A stretch of 64,000 bases of DNA from Bacilli bacterium (GTDB lineage Bacteria > Bacillota_I > Bacilli_A > RF39 > UBA660): positions 77,027-141,026 of the forward strand of contig JAFUTO010000032.1 in the NCBI GenBank assembly GCA_017484205.1. The letters are read 5' to 3'. Below the pieces are notes generated by a model. The model had not been told where the DNA came from, searched no databases, and saw only the letters and a program-made list of their open reading frames with translations. Positions 30,521 through 45,848 of the stretch are shown here, piece after piece. Each line of letters opens with the position of its first letter. The first letter of the stretch is position 1. The translations under genes were made by a program, and so were the position numbers.

Positions 30521-31254
30521 TTTTCTATTTCCTCCTCTATTTCATTTTCTATATTTTTTTCTAAATCTTCGCAGTAATTTTTTCTATTAATATTTACAAC
30601 AGGGATAAGATCTTTATCAGAAAATAATTTCATTAATGCCTCTACACCATTTTGCTGTTTATATAACATTTCCTCTCTATATAGTGGAAATACTTGATAA
30701 AAATTAATTCTACCTTTATCTGGTAATGTTAAATCCAAATACTCATAATCTTTATTCAAAGCATTAAGTAAAAGTGTACTAGATAACTTTGTATTACTTG
30801 CAAATGGTTTTGTAGCCTTTTCATCTTCTGAAAAAGAATGTCCAAATCCTATCCATGAATCTTCCATTATTGGTGTTCTAGCAATATTTTTTATTTGACT
30901 TATAACCCATCCATTCTCTTCTTTTTCAAAATCAAAATTCCAATCTGATGGTAAATACATAATTAATTCTGCTCTGTCCAATCCTTCGTCTTTAATAATA
31001 TCTGGAACATTCATTTTATAAGCACCTAATCCTCTAGTAACTAACTTATAAAAATTATTTTTTGAATCAGGTGGAATTATCAATATATCCAAATGAACAT
31101 CAGGTGAATATAGTTCATGATAAACCATATCAAACTCACCAATATTATCTTTTATATATTCTTCGTATAATTTTATATCACTAGCATTGTATACATATTT
31201 TGGTGGTTCTTGTAAACCTTTCAAATAATAATTCATTTTTTTAGTAAAACTCAA
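30517..31254 (-). CDS. SUFU-like (Imm-SUFU type) protein, acidic tail ...IEEEIEK
   Basis: YHELYSPDVHLDILIIPPDSKNNFYKLVTRGLGAYKMNVP...AELIMYLPSDWNF...WVISQIKNIARTPIMEDSWIGFGHSF resembles the bacterial Suppressor-of-fused family (h.D....p......lvT.GmS...m...EL...lp..W......W....l...a......w...GH). Confidence 0.45.
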   Translation of the reverse strand: MSFTKKMNYYLKGLQEPPKYVYNASDIKLYEEYIKDNIGEFDMVYHELYSPDVHLDILIIPPDSKNNFYKLVTRGLGAYKMNVPDIIKDEGLDRAELIMYLPSDWNFDFEKEENGWVISQIKNIARTPIMEDSWIGFGHSFSEDEKATKPFASNTKLSSTLLLNALNKDYEYLDLTLPDKGRINFYQVFPLYREEMLYKQQNGVEALMKLFSDKDLIPVVNINRKNYCEDLEKNIENEIEEEIEK

Positions 31255-32952: not shown

Positions 32953-33727
32953 CTTCCGTTTCCAATTGCTGACTATATAAATTATATATATAATCTGCTT
33001 CCATCTCTTCTGCATATTTTGATGCTGATTCTTTATCTACAAAAGGCATCACAATACCATATCTTAACTTATCATTGAAACGATAAATAGAAATATATAA
33101 TTCCTTCTTCATAGCAATTTGACGATAGTTGTCAATTTTCTCTTTAAACTTATCTGGATTGAAATTTTTAATTTCAATTTCATCATAGTATTCTGGTAAA
33201 AAAACAATATATATAACAGCTTCATTTGGATGATATAAATTAGAAGGTCTTAATACCAATCCCCATTCACCAGCAATTTGTATTTTAGGTATCAATTTAT
33301 CTGAATCATATTTTTCTATCATATTAATTCTTTGTTGAATTTTCTTTTCTGAATTAACAGACAAGGAAGAAATTACAATTCTTGATAATCTACCTATCTT
33401 TTCTATAATTTGTTGATTCTGAATTTTTATTTTATCAACATCTTCTTTTGTTAGAAAAACATTTTTTATTAATTTTCTTTGAACATTTAATAGTTCTCTT
33501 AACTCTTTTATATATTCACTAACCTTATTACAAACTTTTTCTTTTCCATGAACATCTTCAACATAAATGTTTTCATATATACATGCTGCTCTTATATATT
33601 CGGCTAAGCAATCTCCAAATCCATATTTAATAGCTTTTTCTTTTATTATTTTTCGTTCTTCTTCATTAAGCATCACATTTATCTTTTGTCTTCTTAATTT
33701 ACTATATTTTTCGTCTTGATTGCTCAT
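32927..33727 (-). CDS. MobC/RHH-like relaxosome accessory protein
   Basis: RRQKINVMLNEEERKIIKEKAIKYGFGDCLAEYIRAACI fits the MobC pattern (r...v.v.lt.eE...i..kA...g.s.seYiR); immediately upstream of the relaxase. Confidence 0.5.
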   Translation of the reverse strand: MSNQDEKYSKLRRQKINVMLNEEERKIIKEKAIKYGFGDCLAEYIRAACIYENIYVEDVHGKEKVCNKVSEYIKELRELLNVQRKLIKNVFLTKEDVDKIKIQNQQIIEKIGRLSRIVISSLSVNSEKKIQQRINMIEKYDSDKLIPKIQIAGEWGLVLRPSNLYHPNEAVIYIVFLPEYYDEIEIKNFNPDKFKEKIDNYRQIAMKKELYISIYRFNDKLRYGIVMPFVDKESASKYAEEMEADYIYNLYSQQLETEGDIYSSNS

Positions 33728-34262
33728 ACATTATCCTTTTCTTTTTTTGAAGATCCAATTTATACAATTCTAAATTTTCTAAATATGAAGTACGAAAATA
33801 ATTTTCACTTAGCCATTTAACTCCTTCTTTTGAAACTAAAACTTTCCCATCTTCTAAATATTGTTGAGAAAAATTATTATTTCTCATACGAATTAAAGCT
33901 ACATATATTGTGTTAATACTTTTATCAAAAAATATAGACAATTCCCTAACTGTCATAGGATTATATTCTATCTCTTTATGAGGGATACCCAATTCTTTTT
34001 CTAATCGTAATATTTGTCTTCTAAAAAATTCTATATCCAAATCTAAATAATATTTTTTTTCATTTGAATATACATCCCTTAACCATTCAACAAATTCTAA
34101 TTTAAAATATACAACTCTCTGACCATTGGATGCTATTCTCTCATCTATCCATTCTTCCAATGGATGTCTTTTTATCATCTTTTTTATTGCTATATCCATC
34201 TGTTTATCAGTCATATTAAAATTTTTCTGCACTCTCCACTTTTCCTGAACTTTAAATTCCAT
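33702..34262 (-). CDS. hypothetical DNA-binding protein (first gene after the oriT-like region)
   Basis: ORF track; internal HTH-like MTVRELSIFFDKSINTIYVALIRM. Confidence 0.35.
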   Translation of the reverse strand: MEFKVQEKWRVQKNFNMTDKQMDIAIKKMIKRHPLEEWIDERIASNGQRVVYFKLEFVEWLRDVYSNEKKYYLDLDIEFFRRQILRLEKELGIPHKEIEYNPMTVRELSIFFDKSINTIYVALIRMRNNNFSQQYLEDGKVLVSKEGVKWLSENYFRTSYLENLELYKLDLQKKKRIMYEQSRRKI

Positions 34263-34264
34263 AT

Positions 34265-34420
34265 TTGCTCCTTTCTTACTTCAGTAGAAAGCACCCCTTA
34301 CAGAGTATAGAAATATAATCTATCAAGCATGGTGTTGACACACCCCTAAGCTTGTTAGGGAATGTCCCTAAAACCCACTAAGTAGTCGCTGACAGTTAGT
34401 AGAATTTTTTTCAAAAATTA
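34265..34420. promoter_or_regulatory. candidate oriT plus promoter of the MOB operon
   Basis: The only GC-enriched non-coding stretch of the element. Inverted repeats TTAGGGA-atg-TCCCTAA (34365-34381) and GGTGT-tgac-ACACC (34331-34344). Direct repeat CACCCCT(T/A)A (34292-34300, 34341-34349). Minus-strand TTGATA-17-TATACT promoter. Directly upstream of the MOB genes. Confidence 0.4.
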
Positions 34421-34789
34421 TTAATAATATTTTTCATTTTCATCTATTTCTAATGATGAAAAATAATCCAAACTATTATAAAAAACTGCTTCAGAAATTT
34501 CACCTGAAGTAGCTTTTTCTAAATCATTTTTTGTTAAATTTCCTCTTGTATAATGATCAGTTAGATAATGAGAAATTGAATAAGGATTTATATTTTCATT
34601 CTCAACTTTTGATGTAATTTTATAAATAAATTTTGCATCTTCTTCATCAATATCAGGAAAACAATCATATATTCCTTTAAAAATATAATAAGATTTTAAA
34701 TTCTCTTTATGAGTTTCTGGCATAGTTTTATATATTGAAAATATATCCAAATTAATCAACCTCTCTTTCATCAATATCTTCAATTTCAA
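34421..34789 (-). CDS. hypothetical ICE accessory protein (paralog of 34752..35093)
   Basis: ORF track; shares the pattern I.K.S.V.....P.SI...L....Y with the upstream ORF; tail ...EIDENEKYY. Confidence 0.5.
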   Translation of the reverse strand: MKLKILMKERLINLDIFSIYKTMPETHKENLKSYYIFKGIYDCFPDIDEEDAKFIYKITSKVENENINPYSISHYLTDHYTRGNLTKNDLEKATSGEISEAVFYNSLDYFSSLEIDENEKYY

Positions 34790-35093
34790 GAGGGTTTCCT
34801 AATTCTTTTCCATTGTTATACCAATCATAGAAATCATCTACTGATAATGATTTTATTTGGTCAATTGTTATATTTTTTTCTTCATAAACTTCATTTGCAA
34901 GTGATTGTCCTATTGATATTGGATCTGTATAATCTCCATGAACTTCTGAACACTTTTTTATCAATAATTCTAACTCTTCTTTTGGAATATCATTTTTAAC
35001 ATTTGTCAAACCAATATAAAAGCAATAATCATAAATATTATAATCATCAAATGATGCTGAATATTCTTTTATTTTTTCAAAAGATTCTATCAT
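34752..35093 (-). CDS. hypothetical ICE accessory protein, acidic tail ...EIEDIDEREVD
   Basis: ORF track; ATGA-type overlap with ArdC. Confidence 0.5.
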   Translation of the reverse strand: MIESFEKIKEYSASFDDYNIYDYCFYIGLTNVKNDIPKEELELLIKKCSEVHGDYTDPISIGQSLANEVYEEKNITIDQIKSLSVDDFYDWYNNGKELGNPLEIEDIDEREVD

Positions 35094-36037
35094 ATATCCA
35101 TCTCCATTTCTTGTTCTATTTCGTTTATTTGAACTTTTTCTTTTTTAATACTATTTTCTTCTAAATAATCTACAATTTTGTTAGCATCTGTTATTGCATT
35201 AAACAATTCTTGTGGATTATTTTTTAATATTTCTAACCAATTCTTTACATAACTTTTATGATTATCTAAATGCCTTTTATCCTCTTCCAAATGAAACTTT
35301 TGCATTAAAAAAGAAGAACTAATTTCTGCTCTTAATTCTTCTTTGGCATAGCCTTCAGTTCCAAAATGGTCTTTCATATTTCTTGATAATCTTGATTCAT
35401 GTCCTGTTGAATGAGCTAATTCGTGAAGTTGTGTAGCATAATAAGAATTACTTGTTTTAAAAGTATTTGATGGTGGCAAAACAACTATATCTTTTGAAGG
35501 ACTATAATAAGCATTTTCTCCTTCTTCTTTATATCCAACGCCTATATTATCAATTATATTTTGAATATAATCATTACTAATAATTTCTTGTTTTTGTTCT
35601 GTTTTATCATTAACCAATCCATCAACTAAATCTCCATTGAATACTGTATAACTCATTTTACTTATTTTAAATTCTTTTTCTTTTTCAGGATTTTCTTCAA
35701 TAATTTTATTATATTCTTCAAAACTTATAATCTTATTATCTTTTTTATTTTTCATTGCCCACCATTCAACTGGTACACCTTTACCTTTTGCTGAACCAAT
35801 AAATTTCCAATGCTTTTTTCCCATTTGATTAAATGTAATCCATCTATTATCTTTATATCCTCTTTTATAAGCAATGTATGATAAATATAAATTATTTACA
35901 CCTCTATATTTTATTCCAGAAATAGCATTTTCAGGAATAGAAGTCTTCCACATTTGCTCCCATGGAATGTTTCCTTCCTCTAAACTTTTTATATACATAT
36001 CAATTAAATCTTGTCTAGTTTTTGGAAGTTTACTCAT
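35090..36037 (-). CDS. ardC: ArdC-like antirestriction protein (ssDNA-binding N-domain + zincin metalloprotease)
   Basis: N-terminal IPWEQMW...YRGVNNLYL...RWITFNQ (DUF1738/ArdC-N) and C-terminal HELAHSTGHESRLSR (HExxH). Tail ...EIEQEMEMDI. Confidence 0.8.
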   Translation of the reverse strand: MSKLPKTRQDLIDMYIKSLEEGNIPWEQMWKTSIPENAISGIKYRGVNNLYLSYIAYKRGYKDNRWITFNQMGKKHWKFIGSAKGKGVPVEWWAMKNKKDNKIISFEEYNKIIEENPEKEKEFKISKMSYTVFNGDLVDGLVNDKTEQKQEIISNDYIQNIIDNIGVGYKEEGENAYYSPSKDIVVLPPSNTFKTSNSYYATQLHELAHSTGHESRLSRNMKDHFGTEGYAKEELRAEISSSFLMQKFHLEEDKRHLDNHKSYVKNWLEILKNNPQELFNAITDANKIVDYLEENSIKKEKVQINEIEQEMEMDI

Positions 36038-36974
36038 ATTCTATTTCATCCATTTCTTGTTCTTGAGCTATCTCTTTATCTGTCATTTCATAAAATATAG
36101 GAATTGTAATTTCGTTAAATAAATCTTTATATACATACTTATTTTCATTAACTATAAATATATCTGACTCACTATCTTTTAATATTTCTCTAATATCTAT
36201 CATTCTTCTTATATCTCTTGATAACCTAGAAATATTAACAGAATATAGATCTAAAGTTTTATTATTTTTTATATCCTCTAATGCTTTTCCAAATGCTTTT
36301 TCATGATTTTTTAATCCTGAACATCTATCAAAATATATTCTTATTAATTCAGTATTTCCTTTAGCATTTTGATTAATAGAATACAAACATTTATCAATTT
36401 GGTTTTTTATAGCAATCATAGATTCACCTTGAACATTATCTACACGACAATAAATTGAATATAATTTATTATCTTTATTTTGTTCCCAAATCATATCTAA
36501 AACTTCATCTACTGCTTCCTTTAAAGAATCTGAATCCATTACATCATCATATTCTATTTCACCATCTTTATTATAAAAAGACAATTCAAACCAGTTATTA
36601 TTATCAATATCTAGTTCATATAATTCGTGTTTTTCGTTTAATATATCTAATAATTCATTATCATCTTTGATATATAATGACATCTCATCTTTAAATGCTC
36701 CAACTTCATTTTTATCTTTAACATGAGCAATTAAATTTCCTGCTTTTATTTGTTCACCATCAGGCGTTATATAATCTTTTTTTGCAATTAAATCACAAGA
36801 TACTATTCCTCTAGCAACAATTTTATATTCACCTTCTGAAGACTTTATACTTGCTACTTCTCCACCATACCAGAAAACATTATCATGATTTGGTTCTTCA
36901 TTTTCTTGAATTTTTATATCAACATTTAATCTTGTATATCCGTTTGGTGATATTTTTCCACGAACTAAATTCAT
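36030..36974 (-). CDS. two-domain protein: unknown N-domain + resolvase-like catalytic domain with Ser-to-Asp substitution, no DNA-binding domain
   Basis: YSIYCRVDNVQGES...RIYFDRCSGLKNHEKAFGKALEDIKNNKTLDLYSVNISRLSRDIRRMIDIREILKDSESDIFIVNEN aligns with gamma-delta-type resolvase (YaRVSt.qQ...ifsDk.SG....Rp.l..ll......D.lvv..lDRLgRd......i...l...gv.f). The nucleophile position reads D. Tail ...EQEMDEIEYE. Confidence 0.5.
   Translation of the reverse strand: MNLVRGKISPNGYTRLNVDIKIQENEEPNHDNVFWYGGEVASIKSSEGEYKIVARGIVSCDLIAKKDYITPDGEQIKAGNLIAHVKDKNEVGAFKDEMSLYIKDDNELLDILNEKHELYELDIDNNNWFELSFYNKDGEIEYDDVMDSDSLKEAVDEVLDMIWEQNKDNKLYSIYCRVDNVQGESMIAIKNQIDKCLYSINQNAKGNTELIRIYFDRCSGLKNHEKAFGKALEDIKNNKTLDLYSVNISRLSRDIRRMIDIREILKDSESDIFIVNENKYVYKDLFNEITIPIFYEMTDKEIAQEQEMDEIEYE
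36034..36064 (-). repeat. 31-nt gene-junction repeat (copy 1) spanning ...EQEMDEIEY and the ATG of ardC
   Basis: Plus strand TCATATTCTATTTCATCCATTTCTTGTTCTT is identical to 58713-58743. Confidence 0.85.
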
Positions 36975-37189
36975 TATTTATCTCCTAATATTTTAGTATC
37001 AAGATCTTGTTGCATTTGATAGATTTTTTCTTGTTGTTTTTTATAATCATATAATACTTTTAACTGTTTATCATAATCGGATATTACAACATTAATAGCA
37101 TCTATTTTATCTAGTTCCTTCTTCTTTAGTGCTTCTAACTTATCAATTTTTTTCTCTAATGGTTTATTCAAAATTAATTCTCCTTTCAT
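36974..37189 (-). CDS. hypothetical coiled-coil protein (71 aa)
   Basis: ORF track; overlaps neighbours at both ends (translational coupling). Confidence 0.45.
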   Translation of the reverse strand: MKGELILNKPLEKKIDKLEALKKKELDKIDAINVVISDYDKQLKVLYDYKKQQEKIYQMQQDLDTKILGDK

Positions 37190-37743
37190 ATTTCTAATTC
37201 ATATTCTTCATCAATATTATTTAATTCAAAAGATTTATCTGTTTCTTTATAACAATTATCAAGAATCCATTTAAAATTTTTTGAAATATTTTCATCTTCT
37301 CTAAGTAATAATCCTTGCCATATTCCTTTAATATGATTTATTCCATTTAAAAACTTTATTCCTGTTCCTCCTGCCTCTTTCCAATCAAGAAGATTCTTTG
37401 TATGGTCATCAATTAAATAATCAAATGAAGTAATTTTACTAGGTAAATATTTATATTTAATATCACCATAAGGAACAAAAATTCTCTTTTCAATTGGTAA
37501 CTCTGGAAGATATTTATTTAACCAATTATTTTTTTCTTTTAAAGCATAATCACTATCACTTAAAAAAGAAGAAAGAATATAAATATCCTTTCCTTCTCTA
37601 ATAAGTTTTTTAGTTTCTTCTAATATATAATTGTTTGGTTTTAATGATTCATAATAACCTTTTTGATATAATTCATTATTTGATTGAATATTTTTCCATT
37701 CGGCAAGAGTACCGTCCATATCAATGAAAATTCTTGTTTTCAT
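37186..37743 (-). CDS. HAD-superfamily 5-prime(3-prime)-deoxyribonucleotidase-like phosphatase
   Basis: IFIDMDGTLAEW (DxDG.L motif I), ILSS (motif II), IDDHTKNL (motif III/IV region); size and pattern as NT5C-type dNMP nucleotidases. Tail ...DEEYELEI. Confidence 0.6.
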   Translation of the reverse strand: MKTRIFIDMDGTLAEWKNIQSNNELYQKGYYESLKPNNYILEETKKLIREGKDIYILSSFLSDSDYALKEKNNWLNKYLPELPIEKRIFVPYGDIKYKYLPSKITSFDYLIDDHTKNLLDWKEAGGTGIKFLNGINHIKGIWQGLLLREDENISKNFKWILDNCYKETDKSFELNNIDEEYELEI

Positions 37744-37745
37744 GA

Positions 37746-37949
37746 TTATTTATCTAATTCAACTTCATCTTTTAATGGAACTTTTTCATAATCAATATAG
37801 CTCTCAATATAACTTTCAATAGAGTTTTTTAAATCTCCAATTGTTTCGCATTTATATTTAGTACCTGATGAAGACGGAGTGCCAATATAAACAGTTTTTT
37901 CTTCTTTAGAAAATACTATTTCAAGTTCAATATCATCTTTTATAATCAT
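37746..37949 (-). CDS. hypothetical ICE accessory protein (67 aa), tail ...DEVELDK
   Basis: ORF track; ATGA overlap with ssb. Confidence 0.45.
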   Translation of the reverse strand: MIIKDDIELEIVFSKEEKTVYIGTPSSSGTKYKCETIGDLKNSIESYIESYIDYEKVPLKDEVELDK

Positions 37950-38317
37950 TTATCAATTTCCTCCTCTACTTCATCATTTAAAATAGTTTTATCTTGATTT
38001 TTGCTGTGAGATAGATAATCAATATTATCAACAACAATATCAGTATATTTAGTTTTTTGACCATCTTTTTCTACTAATCTAGTTTGTATTGATGCTTCTA
38101 TAAGAACTAAATCACCTTTTAATAAATGGTCTGATTTTTTTACTGCTCTTTCATTCCATGCTGTTAAATCTATAAAGTTTGCTTCGTGTTCACCATTTTC
38201 ATTTGTGTATGGTTTTGGTACAGCAATAGTAATACTAGCATAATTTTTTCCTGCTTCAGTTTGTTTTAATTCTGGTTTTGATACCATTCTTCCTACAAGT
38301 AATGTTTGATTTAACAT
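37946..38317 (-). CDS. ssb: single-stranded DNA-binding protein with non-canonical acidic tip
   Basis: MLNQTLLVGRMVSKPELKQTEAGKNYASITIAV...FIDLTAWNERA......KGDLVLIEASIQTR is an SSB OB fold. The C-terminus is ...DEVEEEIDK instead of the usual D-D-D-(I/L)-P-F. Confidence 0.85.
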   Translation of the reverse strand: MLNQTLLVGRMVSKPELKQTEAGKNYASITIAVPKPYTNENGEHEANFIDLTAWNERAVKKSDHLLKGDLVLIEASIQTRLVEKDGQKTKYTDIVVDNIDYLSHSKNQDKTILNDEVEEEIDK

Positions 38318-38321
38318 ATAA

Positions 38322-38354
38322 TCTCTCCTTTTCTATTTTTCTATTTCTTCTTCT
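38322..38354 (-). repeat. 33-nt gene-junction repeat (copy 2)
   Basis: Identical to 29895-29927 by direct comparison. Confidence 0.85.
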
Positions 38355-38713
38355 AATTCTACTTCGTTTTTCTTCTCAAATTTCATACTTAATAACCTAC
38401 TATTGGTATAAAAAGATTCCAAATCTTTAACATTTAATGGTTCTACTCCAAACCAGTTTTTAGATGATTCTTTAGTATATCCAAATGTTAATCCCTTTGT
38501 TATTTGAAATTCAAAAACAAGATAATTTGGATTCTTATTATTAATTCTTGCCAGATGCTGCCAATCTGAAAAATTTCTATAATCTTTAAGAAGTTTTCCA
38601 ATTCCTAAATCGTCTAAAAATTTTCGGAATTTATTAAACTCTTCTTCATTTGATACCATTATAGAATTAATTCCAGCGATAAAGTCTAGCCATTTATTCT
38701 CTTCGTTTATCAA
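38333..38713 (-). CDS. hypothetical ICE accessory protein, acidic tail ...LEEEIEK
   Basis: ORF track (TTG start after AGGAGA); the palindrome operator variant lies just upstream. Confidence 0.5.
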   Translation of the reverse strand: MINEENKWLDFIAGINSIMVSNEEEFNKFRKFLDDLGIGKLLKDYRNFSDWQHLARINNKNPNYLVFEFQITKGLTFGYTKESSKNWFGVEPLNVKDLESFYTNSRLLSMKFEKKNEVELEEEIEK

Positions 38714-38730
38714 TTAAATCTCCTTTCTGT

Positions 38731-38748
38731 TGCCTACAATAGTAGTCA
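38731..38748. promoter_or_regulatory. palindromic operator-like site, variant TGCCTAC-AATA-GTAGTCA (copy 3)
   Basis: Shares the 12-nt core CTACAATAGTAG with copies 1 and 2; ~17 nt upstream of the start of ORF 38333..38713. Confidence 0.35.
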
Positions 38749-38763
38749 ATAATTTTAAAAAAA

Positions 38764-39804
38764 TTATATCTCTATTTCTAAATCTTCTTCTACTTCTTTA
38801 TCTTTAGATGATGATAAATCATAATGATAAAGTTCATTCTTACCATAAGTAATGGAAGTTATATTTGAAAAGTTAAATTCTTCTGTCCATCTGCTTGTTT
38901 CTTCCTGAGAATTTTCTTTAATAAATTTTGATACTTCTTCATAAGCTTTACCATATCCACTACTGCCTTTACTATCATTAGTTAAATCTCTTTTTAATGC
39001 ACTATATTCATATTTAAATGTTAAACTTTTATCTCCATATTGAATTGTTATATTAACTGTTTTTGCATCAATATCTTTAATAGAATTATATATATTTCTT
39101 TTTATATATAAATCTTTAAATTCATTATTTTTATTTTCTTTTATAATATCTAAATATTCAATCTTATCACGGAATATTAGCAATTCAAGTCCTAATTCCT
39201 CTTTATTATTTCTATAATCATCTATTGTTTCTATAATTTTATTAGAATACTTTTCAACAGTCTTTTGAGGATTATTTAAATATTCAACATCTATATAATG
39301 TCCCTTATATTCTGGAATGTTTGTGAATTCATAACTTGAATATGACTTTTGAAGTTTTATTATTGGATTCATTTCTTCAACAAATTGTTCTCTTACATCT
39401 CTCTTATAACTATCTATCCTATAATCTTCTAAATGATTATATTTTTCAATAGCTATATCTTTTAATTTTTCTTCATTGGCGAATGAATATTTCTCTATAT
39501 AATCTTGTATTTCATTCCACAATTTTTCACCCAAAACACCAAAAGAACTTTTTTCAATTAAGTTCTTTTCTTTAGGTAATAATTCATTTAAATAATAAGT
39601 GCAATTATATAATACTCTATCTTTTGTATCCAAATATCCTGCTACTTCATAATCATTTTGTGATAAATAACTATTATTTGTTTTAGTATATATAACAACA
39701 AATCTATCATCAAATTTCTCTTTATGAATTTTTTGATGATTATAAGTACCTTCAAAAACTAAATCATTAACATCAGGATTTAAAAGAAATTTTTCTATAT
39801 CCAT
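38764..39804 (-). CDS. hypothetical ICE accessory protein, paralog A, tail ...EVEEDLEIEI
   Basis: ORF track; colinear similarity with 39826..40842, including the identical DAKTVNITIQYGDKSLTFKYE. Confidence 0.55.
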   Translation of the reverse strand: MDIEKFLLNPDVNDLVFEGTYNHQKIHKEKFDDRFVVIYTKTNNSYLSQNDYEVAGYLDTKDRVLYNCTYYLNELLPKEKNLIEKSSFGVLGEKLWNEIQDYIEKYSFANEEKLKDIAIEKYNHLEDYRIDSYKRDVREQFVEEMNPIIKLQKSYSSYEFTNIPEYKGHYIDVEYLNNPQKTVEKYSNKIIETIDDYRNNKEELGLELLIFRDKIEYLDIIKENKNNEFKDLYIKRNIYNSIKDIDAKTVNITIQYGDKSLTFKYEYSALKRDLTNDSKGSSGYGKAYEEVSKFIKENSQEETSRWTEEFNFSNITSITYGKNELYHYDLSSSKDKEVEEDLEIEI

Positions 39805-39825
39805 ATTGTATAATCACCCCTTTAA

Positions 39826-40842
39826 TTACATTTCTATTTCTAAATCTTCTTCTACTTCTTTTTCTGGAGTTGGAACATCTTTACTATATATTTCATTCTT
39901 TCCACTTGTTATAGAACTAATCGTAGGAATAGAAAAAGGACATTTCCATTGGTTTTTATCAGCAAGATTAGGATTATTTGCTTTTACAAAATCTGATACT
40001 ATTCCATAACTACTTGTATAACTTGAAGTTTCCATTTTACCACTTGATAATGCACTTCTTAAATCATCAAGTTCATATTTAAATGTTAAACTTTTATCTC
40101 CATATTGAATTGTTATATTAACTGTTTTTGCATCAACATATTTAATTGAATCAAGTATTTTTTTGCAAGAATGAATATCATCAAAAGCATTATCTTTATT
40201 CTCTTGTAATTCTTTTAAATAGCTTACCTTATCGTGGTAAATTAATAATTCTAATCCATAACTTTTTCCGTTTCTTTCAATAAATCTTTTAGATATTTCT
40301 TCTATTGCTTTTTTTGGATTATTTAAATATGAAATAATATTATTATCATAATCAATGTCATAATTGCTGATTGAGATTGTTAAATCTGCTGTTGGATTAT
40401 CCTTAGTGATAAAAAGTTTATTAATTTCTTTTTTATATTCAAATAATCTTGTATCATCCTTTGTATCATATTTTTCCTGAGCTAATTTAGTTAAATCTTT
40501 TTCATGAGCAAAACAATAATCATTTATATATTGCTTTACTTCATCTAAGATTTTTTGATTTAAATTATCAAATCTATCAAACTTTATAACATCACTTTCT
40601 TGAATTTTATCAGTTAAAAATTTTTCTGCATTATATATACAATGTGCCTTATTATCATAATATCCACATAAATTATAATAACTACGATTTTGCCTTAAAG
40701 TGTCTTGATTTTCTTTAATATATAAAAGATCAAACCTATCATCATAGTGTTCTTTATGAAGTTTGTATTCTTTTTGTTGATAATCAAATACTTCATCATT
40801 TGCTTTTACATCTAATAAAAAATTTTCTATTTTACTATACAT
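39826..40842 (-). CDS. hypothetical ICE accessory protein, paralog B, tail ...EVEEDLEIEM
   Basis: ORF track; tandem duplicate of 38764..39804. Confidence 0.55.
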   Translation of the reverse strand: MYSKIENFLLDVKANDEVFDYQQKEYKLHKEHYDDRFDLLYIKENQDTLRQNRSYYNLCGYYDNKAHCIYNAEKFLTDKIQESDVIKFDRFDNLNQKILDEVKQYINDYCFAHEKDLTKLAQEKYDTKDDTRLFEYKKEINKLFITKDNPTADLTISISNYDIDYDNNIISYLNNPKKAIEEISKRFIERNGKSYGLELLIYHDKVSYLKELQENKDNAFDDIHSCKKILDSIKYVDAKTVNITIQYGDKSLTFKYELDDLRSALSSGKMETSSYTSSYGIVSDFVKANNPNLADKNQWKCPFSIPTISSITSGKNEIYSKDVPTPEKEVEEDLEIEM

Positions 40843-40862
40843 ATAATTCTCCTTTCATAGTA

Positions 40863-41444
40863 TTAATAATCCATTTCCATATCATCATTTTCCATTTCAT
40901 AATCATCATTATTATTTGAATTAAGTTGTTGCTCAGTATCTTGTTTTATACGATTTAATTCAATAGATTCTTGATTTTCAAGAAAATTAGATATTTCCAT
41001 TGCTTCTGCTTGAATGTTAGGATCTGTTATCGCTCTATGGTATTCATTAGATATTTCTTGATTAAAGAAATGGAATTCTTTCTTTTCAGTTCTTTGTTTA
41101 TCTTGAATATAATCATAAGTATGATTTATCGCAATTTGTTCTGATAATCTTAAATCTTTTGGATTTAAATTGTTATCAATACATATTAACGCTTGATAGA
41201 AAAGTTGCTCATTATCTTTCTTTAAAGCGTTTAATTGACCATACATGATTGTTAAAAATTGTCTGTTGACTGATTGACTAATTGCTCTTTCTACTTCTTG
41301 TCCAAATTCTTTTTCAAAATGAGATGCAGGTACTTTGGTAGGTTGATGCGTTTCTGGATTTGTATATTTAAAAACTATATCTTCAAGTGTTTTTGACATT
41401 TCTTTTGGTTTTTGTTGAATAAAATCATCATAAAATTTTCTCAT
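40863..41444 (-). CDS. hypothetical ICE accessory protein, tail ...ENDDMEMDY
   Basis: ORF track. No recognised domain. Confidence 0.5.
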   Translation of the reverse strand: MRKFYDDFIQQKPKEMSKTLEDIVFKYTNPETHQPTKVPASHFEKEFGQEVERAISQSVNRQFLTIMYGQLNALKKDNEQLFYQALICIDNNLNPKDLRLSEQIAINHTYDYIQDKQRTEKKEFHFFNQEISNEYHRAITDPNIQAEAMEISNFLENQESIELNRIKQDTEQQLNSNNNDDYEMENDDMEMDY

Positions 41445-41465
41445 AAATTCTTTTCTCCTTTTCTA

Positions 41466-41804
41466 TTAAATATTTATTTCTATATCACTAACTTCTTTAT
41501 TACTAACTGACTTACTTTCTATTTGATGCTGTAAATTTTTATAATCTTCCATTTCAATTAGTTCTAATAAATTTTGTGCTTTTTCACCAGATAAACGAGT
41601 ATATGGTGCATTGAACAAAAATCTATCTTGAACCATTTTTATAATTTCATCTATTGATTCTTTAGAAGATATTTCTCCATCTAGTTCTAATACTCCACCA
41701 TCCATGTTATGACCTTTAGAATTATAAATTGTATAATCACATTTATCTCCATCATTAAATATATGAAGAATATTATTCTCATTACTAATTATTAAAGTAT
41801 CCAT
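41466..41804 (-). CDS. hypothetical ICE accessory protein, tail ...EVSDIEINI
   Basis: ORF track. No recognised domain. Confidence 0.5.
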   Translation of the reverse strand: MDTLIISNENNILHIFNDGDKCDYTIYNSKGHNMDGGVLELDGEISSKESIDEIIKMVQDRFLFNAPYTRLSGEKAQNLLELIEMEDYKNLQHQIESKSVSNKEVSDIEINI

Positions 41805-42181
41805 TATTCATCTCCACCAGATACCAAAGTTATAATTATTTCTAAAGGTTCACACAATGGACATGAATCACAATCTTCATTATCATCTTCAGCAATATCA
41901 TCATCTAATAATGATTCCATTTCTGTTATATTATCTTCATTATCTATTTGATTTGATGGAAGATAACCAGCTAAAACAAGTAAATGAATGAAGTCTATTT
42001 TTAAAACTTCACACATTCTAATTAATGTAACTAAATTATAATTTTCTCTTTCACCATGTTCAATTCTTGATACTTCTGTATCACTAATTCCAACAATGGC
42101 TGCTAATTTTCTTTTACTATAACCTAACATTACTCTTCTTTTTCTAAATACTTCAGCAATAAAACCATAATTATTTTTCAT
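41804..42181 (-). CDS. XRE-family transcriptional regulator with acidic, Cys-containing C-terminal extension
   Basis: GYSKRKLAAIVGISDTEVSRIEHGERENYNLVTLIRMCEVLKIDFIHLL is a Cro/C1-type HTH. Start moved to MKNNYGF (42181); the track N-terminus MSTIVDK is created by the upstream palindrome. Confidence 0.7.
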   Translation of the reverse strand: MKNNYGFIAEVFRKRRVMLGYSKRKLAAIVGISDTEVSRIEHGERENYNLVTLIRMCEVLKIDFIHLLVLAGYLPSNQIDNEDNITEMESLLDDDIAEDDNEDCDSCPLCEPLEIIITLVSGGDE

Positions 42182-42201
42182 AAATATTCTATCCTTTCTT
42201 T

Positions 42202-42219
42202 TGTCTACAATAGTAGACA
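42202..42219. promoter_or_regulatory. palindromic operator-like site TGTCTAC-AATA-GTAGACA (copy 1)
   Basis: Perfect 7-4-7 inverted repeat ~20 nt upstream of the XRE regulator start. A 23-nt block including it is identical to the one at 50032-50049. Confidence 0.45.
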
Positions 42220-42235
42220 TTTTAATCAAAAAAAA

Positions 42236-42262
42236 TTATTTTTCTATTTCTTCTTCTAAATC
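42236..42262 (-). repeat. 27-nt gene-end repeat (copy 2)
   Basis: Identical to 28883-28909. Confidence 0.85.
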
Positions 42263-42451
42263 CTGTTCAATAGTAGTTTTATTAAATAATCTATCTTCTG
42301 AAACATCTATATCAAAATCATATTGCATATTTGAAGTAATATAAGAAATCATCATATCTTCCAAATCTTCAGGGCTTTGAATATCCATTCCTGCTTCTAA
42401 AAATGTTTCTTTGTTTTCTTCAAATAATTCTTTTATATACTCTTTATTCAT
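42236..42451 (-). CDS. hypothetical ICE accessory protein (71 aa), acidic tail ...LEEEIEK
   Basis: ORF track; the 3-prime end is the 27-nt repeat shared with 28883-28909. Confidence 0.5.
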   Translation of the reverse strand: MNKEYIKELFEENKETFLEAGMDIQSPEDLEDMMISYITSNMQYDFDIDVSEDRLFNKTTIEQDLEEEIEK

Positions 42452-42735
42452 TACTCGTCTTCCTTAAAAGATTTTAAATATTTATCTTTTAATGTATCAA
42501 ATATATTTATACAATTATTGCCTAATGATTGCTTATTATTATCATATTCATTTAATAATTCTTGGCATCTCCATAATAACTTAAATTCCTCATCAGTTAT
42601 TTCATAATTTCTTAAATCAACATAATTATCTACTGGGGCATAATTATTTAAATTGTTATAAAAATCACTTAGCATTTTTTCATTTACTTTTTGAACAGCT
42701 TCTGTGTATTCTTTTTCTGTAAATATCTCTTTCAT
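42451..42735 (-). CDS. hypothetical ICE accessory protein (94 aa)
   Basis: ORF track; 1-nt overlap with the downstream gene. Confidence 0.45.
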   Translation of the reverse strand: MKEIFTEKEYTEAVQKVNEKMLSDFYNNLNNYAPVDNYVDLRNYEITDEEFKLLWRCQELLNEYDNNKQSLGNNCINIFDTLKDKYLKSFKEDE

Positions 42736-42752: not shown

Positions 42753-43505
42753 TTAATTTGTTTCTAATTTCATTCCTAAATAGATACCATTTTCATCCTG
42801 TATAGGACTACACATTCCAGTTCTATTTGTTTTCTTTAATTCTGAAGCACAAGCATCTGCTACATTCATCATTGTATATCCATCAGAGAATAGAAAATAC
42901 TTTACAATTTTACCTGAATTATTATCGTTTTTAGATGGTTCTTGAACTGGTTGAGTTTGTTTAGGTTCTTCTTTTGGTGTTGTATTAGTTGTATTATTTT
43001 TTTGATTTGATTCTACTTTAGGTGGAGTTTGTCTATTTTCAGTAGAATTATTTTCAGGTATATTTTCTTGATTTTCTGGTTCTTCTTTTTCTTTTACAAT
43101 AACTTTTAATATTGCTTGACTTGTATTTCCAGATTTATCATTAACACTATATACAATAGATTGTTCACCAACTATTGATGTATCAATCTCTTCGTATTTT
43201 AATTCATCTATTAAATTACCATCAACTTTATCTATAACACTTTCTACATAATCAATGTAGTTTATATCATCCCCTTTCGTTAATTCTAATTCTTCTATTT
43301 TTAATTTAATAATTGGAGCTTCTTCATCTTTTACTATTACTTCTTCTTTTGGCTTTTCTTCTAATTCAGTAGATGAAGTATTATTAAAATGAAAATATAA
43401 AATTAAACCTGCGATCAATATAAAAAAGAGAACGATAATTGATATAATAATCATTCTCTTTCTCTTATATTCATGATATTTAATCAATAATTCTTCATCA
43501 CTCAT
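42753..43505 (-). CDS. membrane-anchored protein with Ig-like (DUF5011-like) extracellular domain
   Basis: N-terminal TM. The domain EAPIIKLKIEELELTKGDDINYIDYVESVIDKVDGNLIDELKYEEIDTSIVGEQSIVYSVNDKSGNTSQAILKVIVKEK is paralogous to the one in 43529..43951. Confidence 0.5.
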   Translation of the reverse strand: MSDEELLIKYHEYKRKRMIIISIIVLFFILIAGLILYFHFNNTSSTELEEKPKEEVIVKDEEAPIIKLKIEELELTKGDDINYIDYVESVIDKVDGNLIDELKYEEIDTSIVGEQSIVYSVNDKSGNTSQAILKVIVKEKEEPENQENIPENNSTENRQTPPKVESNQKNNTTNTTPKEEPKQTQPVQEPSKNDNNSGKIVKYFLFSDGYTMMNVADACASELKKTNRTGMCSPIQDENGIYLGMKLETN

Positions 43506-43528
43506 AGTAAAATTCTCCCTTCATATAA

Positions 43529-43951
43529 TTAATCTACATATTTAAAGTTTGGTTTTTCTTTAATAATAACTTGAAGCTCTGCTTTGGTAGTATTTAAAGC
43601 TGTATCACTTATTTCATAATCAACAACATATTCTCCAATTGCATTAATATCAATTTCATTATACTTAACCTTTTCAGTTAGATCTCCTTCTAAATTATCA
43701 GAGGCTTCCTTAATAAAAGCTTTATAATTTAATTCATCTCCCTGATACATAATAACTTTATCTTGAGTAAGCATTAATATTGGTGCAATTTCGTCAGCTT
43801 TTAACATTTCTTCATATTTTTGTCTTTCTGCCTCTTCTTGCCTAGCTGCTTCAAGTTTTCTTTGAATTACCCCTCTATTTAAAATTATAGGTACTGCTAT
43901 ACAAATAATAACTGCTACAAATGCTATAAATATAATCTTTATTTTTTTCAT
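43529..43951 (-). CDS. membrane-anchored protein with Ig-like (DUF5011-like) extracellular domain
   Basis: N-terminal TM plus IAPILMLTQDKVIMYQGDELNYKAFIKEASDNLEGDLTEKVKYNEIDINAIGEYVVDYEISDTALNTTKAELQVIIKEK. Confidence 0.5.
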   Translation of the reverse strand: MKKIKIIFIAFVAVIICIAVPIILNRGVIQRKLEAARQEEAERQKYEEMLKADEIAPILMLTQDKVIMYQGDELNYKAFIKEASDNLEGDLTEKVKYNEIDINAIGEYVVDYEISDTALNTTKAELQVIIKEKPNFKYVD

Positions 43952-45846
43952 TCTTTCTCCTTTTCATTATCTAAATATATAAATCCTACTACTGTTAATC
44001 CACTACTTTTACTAGCTTTTCTATAAGCGTCAAATGAAGAATAAGTTTTTGTTCTAACTAATTCTTCAGCATGTTCATTTGCATATTCTACTTGACTGCA
44101 TGAATCATCACTACTACACTTATTTCCAACATTTCCTTCACTTATTGTTATAGTTTTACCATCATAAGCTTCAACAAAAGCAACATGTCCAAATTTACGC
44201 CCCATTAAAACAACAACTGAGTTTGCTGATGGTTGTGTTCCTGTTTTGTAACCCATAGCAATAGCAGAAGTTAACCATGTTTGAGCATTACCAGTAGGCA
44301 TCTTTTTACCAGATATTTCTAATGCTCTACCAAATGAGAACCAAGTACATTGACCTTTAAATCCTGAAGTTGCTAATGTGTTTTTTGAGTTATAATTATC
44401 GCTCTTTAGATCTGCTTTTGTTTCATTTTTTCCATATACAGGTGTATGAGTAATAAAATCATTTCCTAATAACTCAGCAAAGTCATCAGATTGATATAAA
44501 AGCTCTAGCATTTCTTTTTGCTCATCTGAAAATGAAGTATCAGATCCATCTGTTACTTTTTTCTTTTTATTAAAATCTGCAACTTTAGAATAATTATTGT
44601 TTAACCATTCTAAATAATCCTCATATACACCATTTGTAATAACTAATACTGGAATAGTATTTGCTTGATTATTTGCAGGAGCAATTTCAGTATTATATTG
44701 TGGTGTTGTAGATGGTGTATTAAAAGTAGGTGGTGATGGTGTAGTCGTTGTTGAACTACTACCTTCTACTTCTTGATAAACAACTTCATGTTTTTCATAT
44801 AGACCAGCTGTCTTGAATGAATTAAGCAAATCTTTTTCATCTGAATCAAAACTTAGTTCTGCTCCTGTTGATTGAATAATAGCAAGTGGTATTCTCCAAT
44901 CTATTTGACCATACTCACCTTTTACTCCGACAACAATACCATTCGGATTCATTCTTTTCCAATCATCAACTTGTTTATTATATTCGGCTTGGACAGATGC
45001 CATATATGATGAATAATCAGTAACTGATTTATCATTTGATGAACCACTACCAAATATAGAGCATATTGCCACAATAACAAGAATTACTAAAGCAACAGGA
45101 ATTATGAATTCTGCTGCTGCTGTAAATACAGATATAAGTAATTTTAAAAATTTAATTAAAACAGATTTAGCAACCTGAATTAATTTTTTACCAAGTGTTT
45201 GATTTAATTTCTTTTGGATTTTTTTAGCACCTTTTTTTGCTACTTTATAACTTGTAGTTTTGACTTTACGACCTATCTTATCATTTATATATTCACTTCC
45301 TGTACCATCACTACTCATAGCTTTATTTAATTCTCTAGAAGTTCTAGTAATAGTTCTTCCTGCTTTTGATACCTTGCTTCCAGTTTTACTAATAACTGTC
45401 ATTGTTTTAGAAACTTTACCTTGATTATCATTAAATTTAAAAGTTTTTTGAGCCACTTTAGATACAGAAGTTTTTAATTTACTGGTTTTAGGAGTAGCTT
45501 CAGATTCACTAACTCCTTCACCTTTTACGGATGACTTAGCTTCCTTATCAATTCCTGAATTAACATTAGTTTTTAATCTACTTGTTGATTCTTCTCCAAC
45601 CTCTTCATTTACCCCTGTATTTGCACTTTCTTGGGCATTTTCAGAGGTTTTTAGTCGTGAGCCAACTTCTTCTTCATTATTTTTGTTTTCTTCTTCCTGA
45701 GCCTTTAATTCACGCTCTTCTCTTATATCAGATAACTTTTTAGCACCTTTATCTATCAAATCAAATGTATTAGATGATGCTGAAGAAGAAACGGTTGATA
45801 ATCTATCAATCGCCTTCTTTGTATCTCTTTCAGCATTATTATTCAT
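43948..45846 (-). CDS. T4SS-associated cell-wall hydrolase (CHAP/NlpC-P60 domain at C-terminus)
   Basis: Disordered Lys/Ser-rich N-region, then a TM, then C-terminal GQCTWFSFGRALE...GHVAFVEAYDGKTITISEGN (CHAP Cys...His). Position next to VirB4 as in Tn916 orf14-like genes. Confidence 0.75.
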   Translation of the reverse strand: MNNNAERDTKKAIDRLSTVSSSASSNTFDLIDKGAKKLSDIREERELKAQEEENKNNEEEVGSRLKTSENAQESANTGVNEEVGEESTSRLKTNVNSGIDKEAKSSVKGEGVSESEATPKTSKLKTSVSKVAQKTFKFNDNQGKVSKTMTVISKTGSKVSKAGRTITRTSRELNKAMSSDGTGSEYINDKIGRKVKTTSYKVAKKGAKKIQKKLNQTLGKKLIQVAKSVLIKFLKLLISVFTAAAEFIIPVALVILVIVAICSIFGSGSSNDKSVTDYSSYMASVQAEYNKQVDDWKRMNPNGIVVGVKGEYGQIDWRIPLAIIQSTGAELSFDSDEKDLLNSFKTAGLYEKHEVVYQEVEGSSSTTTTPSPPTFNTPSTTPQYNTEIAPANNQANTIPVLVITNGVYEDYLEWLNNNYSKVADFNKKKKVTDGSDTSFSDEQKEMLELLYQSDDFAELLGNDFITHTPVYGKNETKADLKSDNYNSKNTLATSGFKGQCTWFSFGRALEISGKKMPTGNAQTWLTSAIAMGYKTGTQPSANSVVVLMGRKFGHVAFVEAYDGKTITISEGNVGNKCSSDDSCSQVEYANEHAEELVRTKTYSSFDAYRKASKSSGLTVVGFIYLDNEKEKE

Positions 45847-45848
45847 AT

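What the first reader, a model, noticed from the sequence alone, without database searches (positions are those of the whole stretch)
34421..42735. Probable leading region packed with anti-defence and establishment candidates
On the side of the oriT-like region opposite the relaxase lie 17 co-directional, mostly overlapping small genes. They include ArdC (antirestriction), SSB, a dNMP-nucleotidase-like HAD phosphatase, a catalytically altered resolvase-like protein and an XRE regulator, plus 12 highly acidic proteins of unknown function. Leading regions of conjugative plasmids are known to concentrate ssb, ard, psi and other anti-defence genes. Many anti-restriction proteins are small acidic DNA mimics. 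The unknown ORFs here are therefore prime candidates for new anti-defence functions.
Basis: inference. Interest (0 to 1): 0.65.

Follow-up and report, generated by a model that had tools for sequence, protein, structure and literature searches.

The report
Conjugative-element accessory genes sharing an acidic tail
This is the variable accessory block of an integrated conjugative element from uncultured gut bacteria, and most of its proteins end in the same short acidic peptide, which may be a tag for injecting them into the recipient cell with the DNA.

Summary
The gene block is real. They lie between type IV secretion genes and a strongly conserved oriT-like gap that is followed by a NikA-like protein and the relaxase. 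ArdC, SSB, an NT5C-type HAD phosphatase, a resolvase-like protein (Ser replaced by Asp) and an XRE regulator are confirmed. One "unknown" carries a polyvalent-protein domain, LPD16. The element is an ICE integrated in the chromosome of uncultured gut Bacilli.

I could not determine transfer polarity, so "leading region" remains unproven. The block has no non-coding space for ssDNA promoters.

The main result is new. Thirteen of the 16 products, plus 9 other soluble accessory proteins on both sides of oriT, end in one C-terminal motif, roughly E-(I/L/M)-(E/D)-(K/R/I/M/L). This is far above chance (P about 1e-15). It is not explained by embedded ribosome-binding sites. It is kept in orthologues and in unrelated genes inserted into the block in sister elements. 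A related motif ends ArdC-type polyvalent proteins, primases and one relaxase in unrelated elements.

My best reading, which is inferred: these proteins are made in the donor and exported through the T4SS using the tail as a recognition signal.

The parts
34263..34420 (.). oriT-like intergenic region. IR1 (TTAGGGA-cat-TCCCTAA) lies at 34355-34371. Composite hairpin IR2 (CAAGC..GGTGT-gtca-ACACC..GCTTG) lies at 34324-34354. An invariant 15-mer, ACACCATGCTTGATA, lies at 34321-34335.
   Evidence: The core is almost invariant in 10 related loci. Both strands fold significantly better than shuffled sequence, z -3.2 and -4.0. The region sits directly upstream of the 186-aa protein, the NikA-like protein and the relaxase.
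34421..34789 (-). Unknown protein of 122 aa (109 aa from the ATG). It is acidic and has a weak or variable tail (..EIDENEKYY).
34752..35093 (-). Unknown protein of 113 aa, pI 4.1, tail ..IEDIDEREVD.
35090..36037 (-). ArdC: ArdC-N ssDNA-binding domain plus a zincin metallopeptidase with HELAH. Tail ..EQEMEMDI.
   Evidence: Pfam. Matches the R388 ArdC structure 6sna/6i89 at 1e-30. In the AF2 model the tail, residues 301-315, is disordered. The tail is kept in 111 of 120 homologues.
36030..36974 (-). 314-aa protein with an unknown acidic N-terminal domain and a resolvase-like domain whose nucleophile Ser is replaced by Asp (YCRVD). Tail ..EMDEIEYE.
36974..37189 (-). Basic 71-aa protein, probably a coiled coil. 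It has no tail in any orthologue.
37186..37743 (-). HAD-family NT5C-type 5'(3')-deoxyribonucleotidase with the DMDGT motif. Tail ..DEEYELEI.
37746..37949 (-). Unknown protein of 67 aa, tail ..KDEVELDK.
37946..38317 (-). SSB (OB fold). The canonical C-terminal tip is replaced by the shared tail, ..EVEEEIDK.
38333..38713 (-). Unknown protein of 126 aa, tail ..ELEEEIEK.
38764..39804 (-). Unknown protein of 346 aa, an orphan family with 85 members and a tandem paralogue of the next gene. Tail ..EEDLEIEI.
   Evidence: Homologue search. AF2 model pLDDT 88 with tail residues 332-346 disordered. No fold match in PDB or BFVD.
39826..40842 (-). Unknown protein of 338 aa, paralogue (43% identity) of the 346-aa protein. 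Tail ..EEDLEIEM.
40863..41444 (-). Unknown protein of 193 aa, tail ..NDDMEMDY.
41466..41804 (-). 112-aa protein with an LPD16 (large polyvalent-protein-associated) domain. Tail ..VSDIEINI.
   Evidence: Pfam hit 1.4e-5 at 25.2 bits, against a cut-off of 27. The same domain is fused to ArdC in P0279.
41804..42229 (-). XRE-family HTH regulator. It has no tail in any orthologue.
42236..42451 (-). Unknown protein of 71 aa, pI 4.05, tail ..DLEEEIEK.
42451..42735 (-). Unknown protein of 94 aa, acidic, with no canonical tail.
28107..31254 (-). Six more tail-bearing accessory genes downstream of the relaxase. They include a SUFU-domain protein at 30517-31254.
56261..59104 (-). Four more tail-bearing genes upstream of the primase and T4SS genes. 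They include an orphan N6/N4 DNA methylase at 57688-58716 (tail ..CELER).
31267..34262 (-). Relaxosome module: a basic 186-aa protein, a NikA-like RHH protein and a PF03432 relaxase. All three lack the tail.
42753..56124 (-). T4SS and DNA-processing genes, all without the tail: two Ig-like membrane proteins, a CHAP hydrolase, VirB4, PrgI, VirB6-like, VirB2-like, the VirD4-type coupling protein (50069-52027), a 401-aa unknown and a DnaG-type primase.
24399..26246 (-). Large serine recombinase at the left end of the ICE. Host fpg and xth genes lie just beyond it, at 21932-23520.

Best explanation
The block is the variable accessory module of an integrative conjugative element (ICE) of uncultured gut Bacilli. 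It carries establishment and anti-defence functions. In effect it is an unbundled 'polyvalent protein': ArdC-N plus peptidase, LPD16, SSB, a nucleotidase, an inactive-looking resolvase domain and many orphan proteins are encoded as separate small genes.

Thirteen of the 16 products end in a flexible C-terminal peptide with consensus E-(I/L/M)-(E/D)-(K/R/I/M/L)-COOH, preceded by more acidic and hydrophobic residues. Nine other soluble accessory proteins elsewhere in the element, including an orphan DNA methylase, have the same tail.

Proposed mechanism. The genes are transcribed in the donor as a continuation of the T4SS gene array. The tail serves as a common docking signal for the coupling-protein/T4SS machinery. 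The proteins are then delivered into the recipient together with the T-strand. There they coat the DNA (SSB, ArdC), modify it (the methylase) or otherwise protect it before any element gene can be expressed.

What is shown: the gene content, the tail, its protein-level conservation, its restriction to soluble accessory proteins, its disorder in the models, and its presence on ArdC, primase and relaxase proteins of unrelated elements.

What is inferred: that the tail is recognised by the T4SS, that the proteins are transferred, and that the orphan proteins counter defence systems.
For: Element and context:
- The ICE is shown by a large serine recombinase next to host fpg/xth genes, a full Gram-positive-type T4SS, a coupling protein, a primase and a sortase with LPXTG adhesins.
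- The hosts are uncultured Bacilli, 'Tenericutes' and 'Mollicutes' MAGs, and the contigs reach 0.2-1 Mb.

The tail is real:
- 25 of 79 ORFs carry it, against a 4.1% internal-window rate (binomial P=6.6e-16).
- Within the element, 22 of 42 ORFs carry it.
- The host part of the window has at most 3 loose matches.

The tail is not a by-product of translation coupling:
- 15 of 22 tail genes have no Shine-Dalgarno core in their last 24 nt.
- Distances to the next gene range from -38 to +136 nt.
- Glu codon usage in the tails matches that in the gene bodies (all).

Selection acts at the protein level:
- Orthogroups are consistently tail-positive (ArdC 8/8, resolvase-like 7/7) or tail-negative (relaxase 0/9, NikA-like 0/9, XRE 0/9, sortase 0/8, recombinase 0/6).
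- 17 of 22 block ORFs in sister elements that have no homologue in the window still carry the tail.
- 111 of 120 ArdC homologues at 54-89% identity keep the pattern although the residues differ.

The tail is flexible: it is disordered in both AF2 models.

The motif is more general:
- ArdC relatives at 35-55% identity, of which the ten scanned are multi-domain polyvalent proteins, are enriched at the C-terminus for -4 G/E, -3 M/L/I, -2 E, -1 R/L. The strict motif occurs in 41 of 149, against a 1.9% background (P=2.5e-35).
- The motif is not enriched internally in these proteins.
- Unrelated Firmicutes elements of 34-53% GC carry it on ArdC, on DUF3991-Toprim primases, on a MobL relaxase and on an unknown protein.

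Precedent:
- pSa ArdC and the RP4 TraC1 primase are transferred as proteins (PMC5512222).
- An F-type T4SS translocates SSB, PsiB and even a host HAD nucleotidase, YrfG (PMC11288057; abstract of PMC8406263 as listed).
- Glu-rich C-terminal signals are read by DotM in Legionella (abstract of PMC5802825 as listed).

Anatomy: there is no terminator and no gap longer than 50 nt between the T4SS genes and the block.
Against: - There is no direct evidence of translocation.
- No receptor for the tail has been identified.
- The element's own relaxase and primase, the most expected T4SS substrates, lack the tail.
- The pLS20-family plasmid examined has ArdC but no tails, so the signal is not universal among Firmicutes.
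- Known VirB/D4-type signals are positively charged, not acidic (PMC11288057).
- Related endings (GIER, GISL) occur on ArdC fusions in Fusobacterium and Campylobacter. The motif could therefore track the ArdC/polyvalent protein world rather than a particular secretion machine.
- Co-transcription with the T4SS genes is inferred from anatomy only. The RNA-seq contigs were uninformative.
Confidence: 0.42

Rival explanations
1. Classical leading region. The block is the first DNA to enter the recipient. Its genes are expressed there early and act as anti-restriction, SSB and anti-defence functions. The shared tail would have some other, secondary role.
For: - The block lies on the side of the conserved oriT-like region opposite the relaxase.
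- ArdC and SSB are hallmark leading-region genes. Relaxases are 'typically' in the lagging region (PMC11541004).
- If the plus strand is the T-strand, it would be the template for every gene in the block, the orientation reported for leading-region genes.
Against: - Polarity is not determined. The best-conserved sequence, IR2 plus ACACCATGCTTGATA, abuts the relaxase-operon start, as in pIP501 and pMV158. By my reading of that geometry, this block would be transferred last.
- There is no non-coding room for ssDNA promoters, since gaps are 50 nt or less.
- Ten tail-bearing accessory genes lie on the other side of oriT or far upstream.
- Some MOB classes show no leading-region enrichment at all.
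Confidence: 0.25
2. The tail is a docking or regulatory peptide for some partner other than the secretion machine. Candidates are the ArdC metallopeptidase, the relaxosome, SSB-coated ssDNA, or a protease for which the tail acts as a degron limiting protein lifetime. It would co-ordinate the accessory proteins inside a single cell.
For: - The motif is most widespread on proteins that contain the MPTase domain.
- It is a terminal, disordered, short linear motif of the kind used for protein-protein docking.
- It replaces the SSB C-terminal tip, which in canonical SSBs is an interaction peptide (the role of the tip is my own background knowledge).
Against: - AF2 does not dock the ArdC tail onto ArdC's own peptidase (pLDDT 21-26).
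- The motif is not found at internal domain boundaries of polyvalent proteins, so it is not a processing site.
- To my knowledge, known bacterial C-terminal degrons are non-polar rather than acidic.
- The motif marks exactly the classes known to be transferred elsewhere: ArdC, primase, relaxase and SSB.
Confidence: 0.2
3. The tail is a nucleotide-level by-product. It could come from ribosome-binding sites or translational-coupling signals of the next gene, from slippery sequences for frameshift fusion, or from repeated junction sequences used for cassette recombination in an AT-rich genome.
For: - Seven of 22 tails do contain a Shine-Dalgarno core.
- Four genes end in an identical 20-mer, where 0.02 are expected by chance.
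- Gene content in the block turns over between sister elements.
Against: - 15 of 22 tails have no Shine-Dalgarno core, and tail-less genes are coupled just as often.
- DNA identity does not extend beyond the tail codons, except for one pair.
- The amino-acid pattern persists while the residues change, and it persists in elements of 52-53% GC.
- Host genes of the same genome lack it.
- Only 2-3 junctions have an A-run followed by TGA that could slip.
Confidence: 0.03

Closest known systems
Leading-region anti-defence islands of conjugative plasmids (Samuel et al. 2024, PMC11541004)
   Same: A cluster next to oriT, co-directional, holding ArdC-type anti-restriction, SSB and many small genes of unknown function, with high gene turnover between related elements.
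   Different: Polarity is unproven here. There is no room for Frpo-type ssDNA promoters. The block is continuous with the T4SS gene array. The host is a Gram-positive-type ICE. Equivalent tail-bearing genes lie on both sides of oriT.
Polyvalent proteins of conjugative elements and phages (Iyer et al. 2017, PMC5512222)
   Same: The domain repertoire is shared: ArdC-N, MPTase-PolyVal, LPD16, methylase, and Toprim in relatives. Close ArdC relatives are true polyvalent fusions that end in a related C-terminal motif.
   Different: Here the domains are separate small genes, each with its own tail. The paper text that I searched does not mention a shared C-terminal motif.
Protein transfer by conjugative T4SSs (F/pED208 'conjutome', RP4 TraC1, pSa ArdC)
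   Same: The same classes of protein (SSB, ArdC, primase, a HAD nucleotidase) are known to pass to recipients and to help establishment.
   Different: Those systems are Gram-negative. Their signals are heterogeneous: positively charged, hydrophobic or internal. No single sequence-readable tag is known for them.
Legionella Dot/Icm Glu-rich ('E-block') C-terminal signals read by DotM (PMC5802825)
   Same: A C-terminal, disordered, glutamate-rich signal with a hydrophobic residue near the end, shared by many unrelated substrates.
   Different: That system is a type IVB effector translocator with DotLMN adaptors. No DotM homologue was found here. The motif here is a strict acidic/hydrophobic alternation at the very terminus.
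Establishment genes of pLS20-family plasmids (PMC6294495, PMC8708921)
   Same: A Gram-positive conjugative element with an ArdC-like gene and other establishment genes.
   Different: The pLS20-family plasmid examined shows no tails on ArdC or its neighbours. Its establishment genes are reported to be controlled by an ssDNA promoter and by antitermination.

Membership tests
Leading region of a conjugative element | Adjacent to oriT on the side opposite the relaxase | tested here: met
   The conserved oriT-like core at 34321-34371 lies between the block and the 186-aa / NikA-like / relaxase genes.
Leading region of a conjugative element | First DNA to enter the recipient (5' side of nic on the T-strand) | tested here: inconclusive
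   The nic site could not be assigned to a strand. The hairpins are symmetric. No similar oriT was found in plasmids. The closest relaxases in plasmids are 29% identical or less. The pIP501-type geometry would, by my reading, reverse the polarity.
Leading region of a conjugative element | ssDNA promoters (Frpo/ssi) upstream of early genes | tested here: not met
   All intergenic gaps in the block are 50 nt or less. The promoter scan found no more sites than in shuffled sequence.
ArdC anti-restriction protein | ArdC-N ssDNA-binding domain plus a zincin metallopeptidase with HExxH | tested here: met
   Pfam hits 1.5e-18 and 8.8e-39. HELAH is invariant. The protein aligns to R388 ArdC (6sna) at 1e-30 over residues 9-299.
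Bacterial SSB | OB-fold SSB domain | tested here: met
   PF00436, 6.8e-22, residues 2-100.
Bacterial SSB | Canonical C-terminal acidic tip ending in a hydrophobic-Pro-Phe sequence | tested here: not met
   The protein ends ..DEVEEEIDK, the element-wide tail. The canonical tip sequence is from my own knowledge.
Serine recombinase / resolvase | Catalytic serine in the Y-x-R-V-S motif | tested here: not met
   The window copy reads YCRVD where the element's bona fide recombinase reads YCRVS. One orthologue, in L013, keeps Ser.
Polyvalent protein | Several effector domains in one polypeptide | tested here: not met
   The domains are on separate ORFs with their own stop codons. Relatives P0279, P0281, P0327 and others are fused.
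C-terminal T4SS translocation signal | Terminal, disordered, shared by unrelated substrates, and absent from structural components | tested here: met
C-terminal T4SS translocation signal | Necessary and/or sufficient for T4CP-dependent transfer to recipients | not testable with these tools
   This needs a transfer assay.

The most novel reading that the evidence does not exclude
The acidic/hydrophobic C-terminal peptide is a sequence-readable export tag for conjugative type IV secretion in Firmicutes, and possibly beyond. It sits on ArdC-type polyvalent proteins, primases, some relaxases and, in this ICE lineage, on more than 20 separately encoded proteins. If so, the set of proteins injected during conjugation could be predicted from sequence alone. 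This element would then deliver a large cocktail of establishment and anti-defence proteins ahead of any gene expression.
Probability: 0.33. Interest if true: 0.85.

Novelty: new variant of a known kind. Interest (0 to 1): 0.7.

Why it matters
Little is known about how Gram-positive conjugation systems choose protein substrates. A December 2025 review says experimental evidence is limited. If the shared tail is the recognition signal, three things follow. It gives a simple way to list the proteins that conjugative elements inject into recipients. It explains why polyvalent proteins exist, since one tag can serve many domains. It also points to about 20 orphan families in this element alone as candidate effectors against recipient defences. 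Separately, this case shows that assigning 'leading region' from gene order alone is unsafe for ICEs of this type.

Tried and rejected
- Near-identity search of the region against plasmids found no match.
- A distant search with the oriT core found only chance 20-mers.
- NCBIfam and PHROGs gave nothing for the orphan proteins.
- Fold searches with the confident 346-aa model found no relative in PDB or BFVD.
- The sigma-70 promoter and terminator scan found no more sites than in shuffled sequence.
- RNA-seq runs hold only small low-depth contigs. They are uninformative about operon structure.
- Literature searches for a nic consensus that would fix polarity did not help. The Tn1549, Tn5252, pC221 and lactococcal searches turned up nothing usable, and the pC221 papers were not held.
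- I rejected the Shine-Dalgarno or coupling explanation of the tail.
- I rejected a recent DNA duplication or recombination junction.
- I rejected an internal processing-site motif in polyvalent proteins.
- I rejected cis-docking of the tail into the ArdC peptidase.
- I considered a -1 frameshift fusion at A-run/TGA overlaps. Only 2-3 junctions have such a sequence.
- A basic/hydrophobic strand in the coupling protein (FVKVK at residue 613) is not distinctive, and I did not pursue it.
- The two 374-aa plus-strand ORFs that I first suspected to be IS copies are host genes, FtsW/RodA and a HIGH nucleotidyltransferase.

Full report
**What is there**

The window is 25% GC, and almost every gene is on the minus strand. 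From about 24.3 kb to beyond 64 kb it holds an integrative conjugative element. A large serine recombinase (24399-26246) lies next to host fpg and xth genes. Upstream of it on the minus strand come:
- an XRE regulator and a sortase;
- six small accessory genes;
- a PF03432 relaxase (31267-33015), preceded by a NikA-like protein and a basic 186-aa protein;
- a 158-nt gap;
- the block in question (34421-42735);
- two Ig-like membrane proteins, a CHAP hydrolase, VirB4, PrgI, VirB6- and VirB2-like proteins, a VirD4-type coupling protein, a 401-aa unknown and a DnaG-type primase;
- four more small genes, including an orphan N6/N4 methylase;
- LPXTG adhesins.

The same proteins occur on metagenomic contigs of up to 0.2-1 Mb. 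Eleven related loci come from MAGs labelled uncultured Bacilli, Tenericutes or Mollicutes, taken from human, goat and mouse gut. The left 24 kb of the window is ordinary host chromosome: PBP2, FtsW/RodA, SpoIIP and a DNA polymerase III fragment.

**Checking the observation**

There are 16 ORFs, not 17, and gene calls made on the source contig agree. Pfam confirms ArdC, a resolvase domain, NT5C, SSB and an XRE HTH. It adds LPD16, a polyvalent-protein-associated domain, in the 112-aa protein.
- The ArdC aligns to the solved R388 ArdC and keeps its HExxH motif.
- The resolvase-like protein has Asp in place of the catalytic Ser. One orthologue keeps Ser.
- The 11 remaining proteins have no match in Pfam, NCBIfam or PHROGs.
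- The largest orphan, of 346 aa, has a tandem paralogue. Its family has only 85 members. Its AF2 model is confident (pLDDT 88), yet it has no structural relative in PDB or BFVD.

The block is significantly more acidic than the host genes, but part of that acidity is terminal. The gap at 34263-34420 behaves like an oriT. A core with a 7-bp hairpin (IR1) and a composite hairpin (IR2: CAAGC..GGTGT-loop-ACACC..GCTTG), followed by ATA, is almost invariant in ten elements. The neighbouring NikA-like and 186-aa proteins in those elements are only 36-60% identical. Variation falls in the hairpin loops.

**The unexpected feature**

Listing the C-termini showed that most block proteins end alike..EEEIEK..EEDLEIEI..EYELEI..EMEMDI..DEIEYE..EVELDK. 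I scored an acid-hydrophobic-acid triplet in the last seven residues.
- 25 of 79 ORFs are positive, against a 4.1% rate for internal windows of the same proteins (P=6.6e-16).
- Positives comprise 13 of 16 in the block, 6 of 6 genes at 28107-31254 beyond the relaxase, and 4 of 4 at 56261-59104. That is 22 of 42 ORFs within the element.
- Every T4SS component, the relaxase and its two accessory proteins, both XRE regulators, the sortase, the recombinase and the host genes are negative, apart from a few loose matches.
- Over 41 families the consensus is -4 E, -3 I/L/M, -2 E/D, -1 K/R/I/M/L, preceded by further acidic and hydrophobic residues.

**Is the tail a nucleotide artefact?**

No.
- Fifteen of the 22 tails contain no Shine-Dalgarno core.
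- The distance to the next gene ranges from -38 to +136 nt.
- Tail-less genes are coupled just as often.
- Glu codon usage does not differ between tails and gene bodies (all).
- Four genes share an identical 20-mer, but the identity stops at the tail codons. That is what strong codon bias would produce from the same peptide.

**Is the tail selected at the protein level?**

Yes.
- In nine sister elements each orthogroup is consistently tail-positive or tail-negative.
- 17 of 22 block ORFs with no homologue in the window still end in the tail.
- 111 of 120 ArdC homologues at 54-89% identity keep the alternating pattern with different residues, for example EMEMEYA, DLEMEI and ELEYE.
- In both AF2 models the tail is the only disordered segment.

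**How general is it?**

ArdC representatives at 35-55% identity are often 400-1400 aa long. The ten I scanned are true polyvalent proteins, with ArdC-N and MPTase joined to LPD16, LPD3, LPD25, AAA or Toprim domains. Their C-termini are enriched for -4 G/E, -3 M/L/I, -2 E, -1 R/L. The strict motif occurs in 41 of 149, against a 1.9% background (P=2.5e-35). The alternating motif is not enriched internally: 143 observed against 161±12 expected. It is therefore a terminal signal, not a linker or cleavage site.

Four unrelated Firmicutes elements with 34-53% GC carry it on ArdC, on DUF3991-Toprim primases (..PDIEMEVDM..KGMEELR), on a MobL relaxase (..SSFELE) and on a 204-aa unknown protein. ArdC fusions on a Fusobacterium plasmid (..KGIER) and a Campylobacter plasmid (..DIGISL) look related. 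A pLS20-family plasmid shows none.

**Polarity**

I could not settle polarity. However, some MOB classes show no leading-region enrichment. In pIP501 and pMV158 the nic region lies inside the relaxase-operon promoter, with the repeats 5' of it. Here the most invariant sequence, IR2 plus ATGCTTGATA, directly precedes the relaxosome genes, which resembles that arrangement. By my reading, it would make the block enter last. Because GCTTG is itself one arm of a conserved stem, the argument is not decisive. I put the odds at about even. No similar oriT or close relaxase exists in the plasmid collection.

**Interpretation**

Its anatomy, however, fits delivery of proteins better than early transcription:
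- it is continuous with the T4SS array;
- it has no room for ssDNA promoters;
- its products, together with similar products on the other side of oriT, share a flexible terminal peptide that structural and donor-specific proteins lack.

The classes that carry the tail here or in other elements are ArdC, SSB, primase, relaxase, methylase and a HAD nucleotidase. These are the classes known or proposed to be transferred by conjugation machines. I therefore propose that the tail is a recognition signal for the coupling protein or T4SS. On this view the ICE lineage has split the polyvalent-protein strategy into many individually tagged proteins. This is an inference. The element's own relaxase and primase lack the tail, and no receptor is known. 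A role as a docking peptide for another hub remains possible.

I found no description of such a signal in the papers searched.

Noticed in passing
window 38764-39804 and 39826-40842: A tandem pair of paralogous orphan genes (346 and 338 aa, 43% identity). The family has only 85 members, all in this kind of element. The fold is confidently predicted but matches nothing in PDB or BFVD.
   Followed up: yes
window 57688-58716: An orphan N6/N4 DNA methyltransferase with no partner nuclease evident. It carries the same C-terminal tail (..VELDDCELER) and lies far from oriT, upstream of the primase.
   Followed up: partly
window 30517-31254 and 29906-30520: A SUFU-domain protein and a neighbour with a weak iSTAND hit lie directly after the relaxase. 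Both carry the tail. As I recall, SUFU-like domains are described as immunity proteins of polymorphic toxin systems.
   Followed up: no
window 28884-28903, 29907-29926, 38334-38353, 42237-42256: Four identical 20-mers (GAAGAAGAAATAGAAAAATA) at the 3' ends of four unrelated genes. Two of them share a further 12 nt that include the next gene's Shine-Dalgarno sequence. These microhomologies might help cassette exchange.
   Followed up: partly
protein P0080 (homologue of window 35090-36037): A variant 88% identical over the peptidase half of ArdC. Its ArdC-N domain is replaced by an XRE-type HTH (Pfam PF12844/PF01381 plus PF18818), and it has the same tail.
   Followed up: no
window 21320-21850: A 176-aa ORF with a CdiA C-terminal toxin domain (4e-11) lies next to the host fpg gene, just outside the ICE end.
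   Followed up: no
window 59482-63938 and 27370-28104: The ICE encodes its own sortase and two LPXTG-type surface proteins (SpaA-like, and Listeria-Bacteroides repeats). These are presumably mating adhesins.
   Followed up: no
window 32927-33015: The longest relaxase ORF overlaps the NikA-like gene by 89 nt. Gene calls on the source contig start the relaxase 21 codons later, giving 561 aa.
   Followed up: no
L007/L009 6408-7676; L006 3018-5465; L011/L012 block regions: Sister elements hold different genes at the same positions in the block, for example a 419-aa ORF ending ..YELEMEYD. The block is therefore a hotspot of gene replacement.
   Followed up: partly
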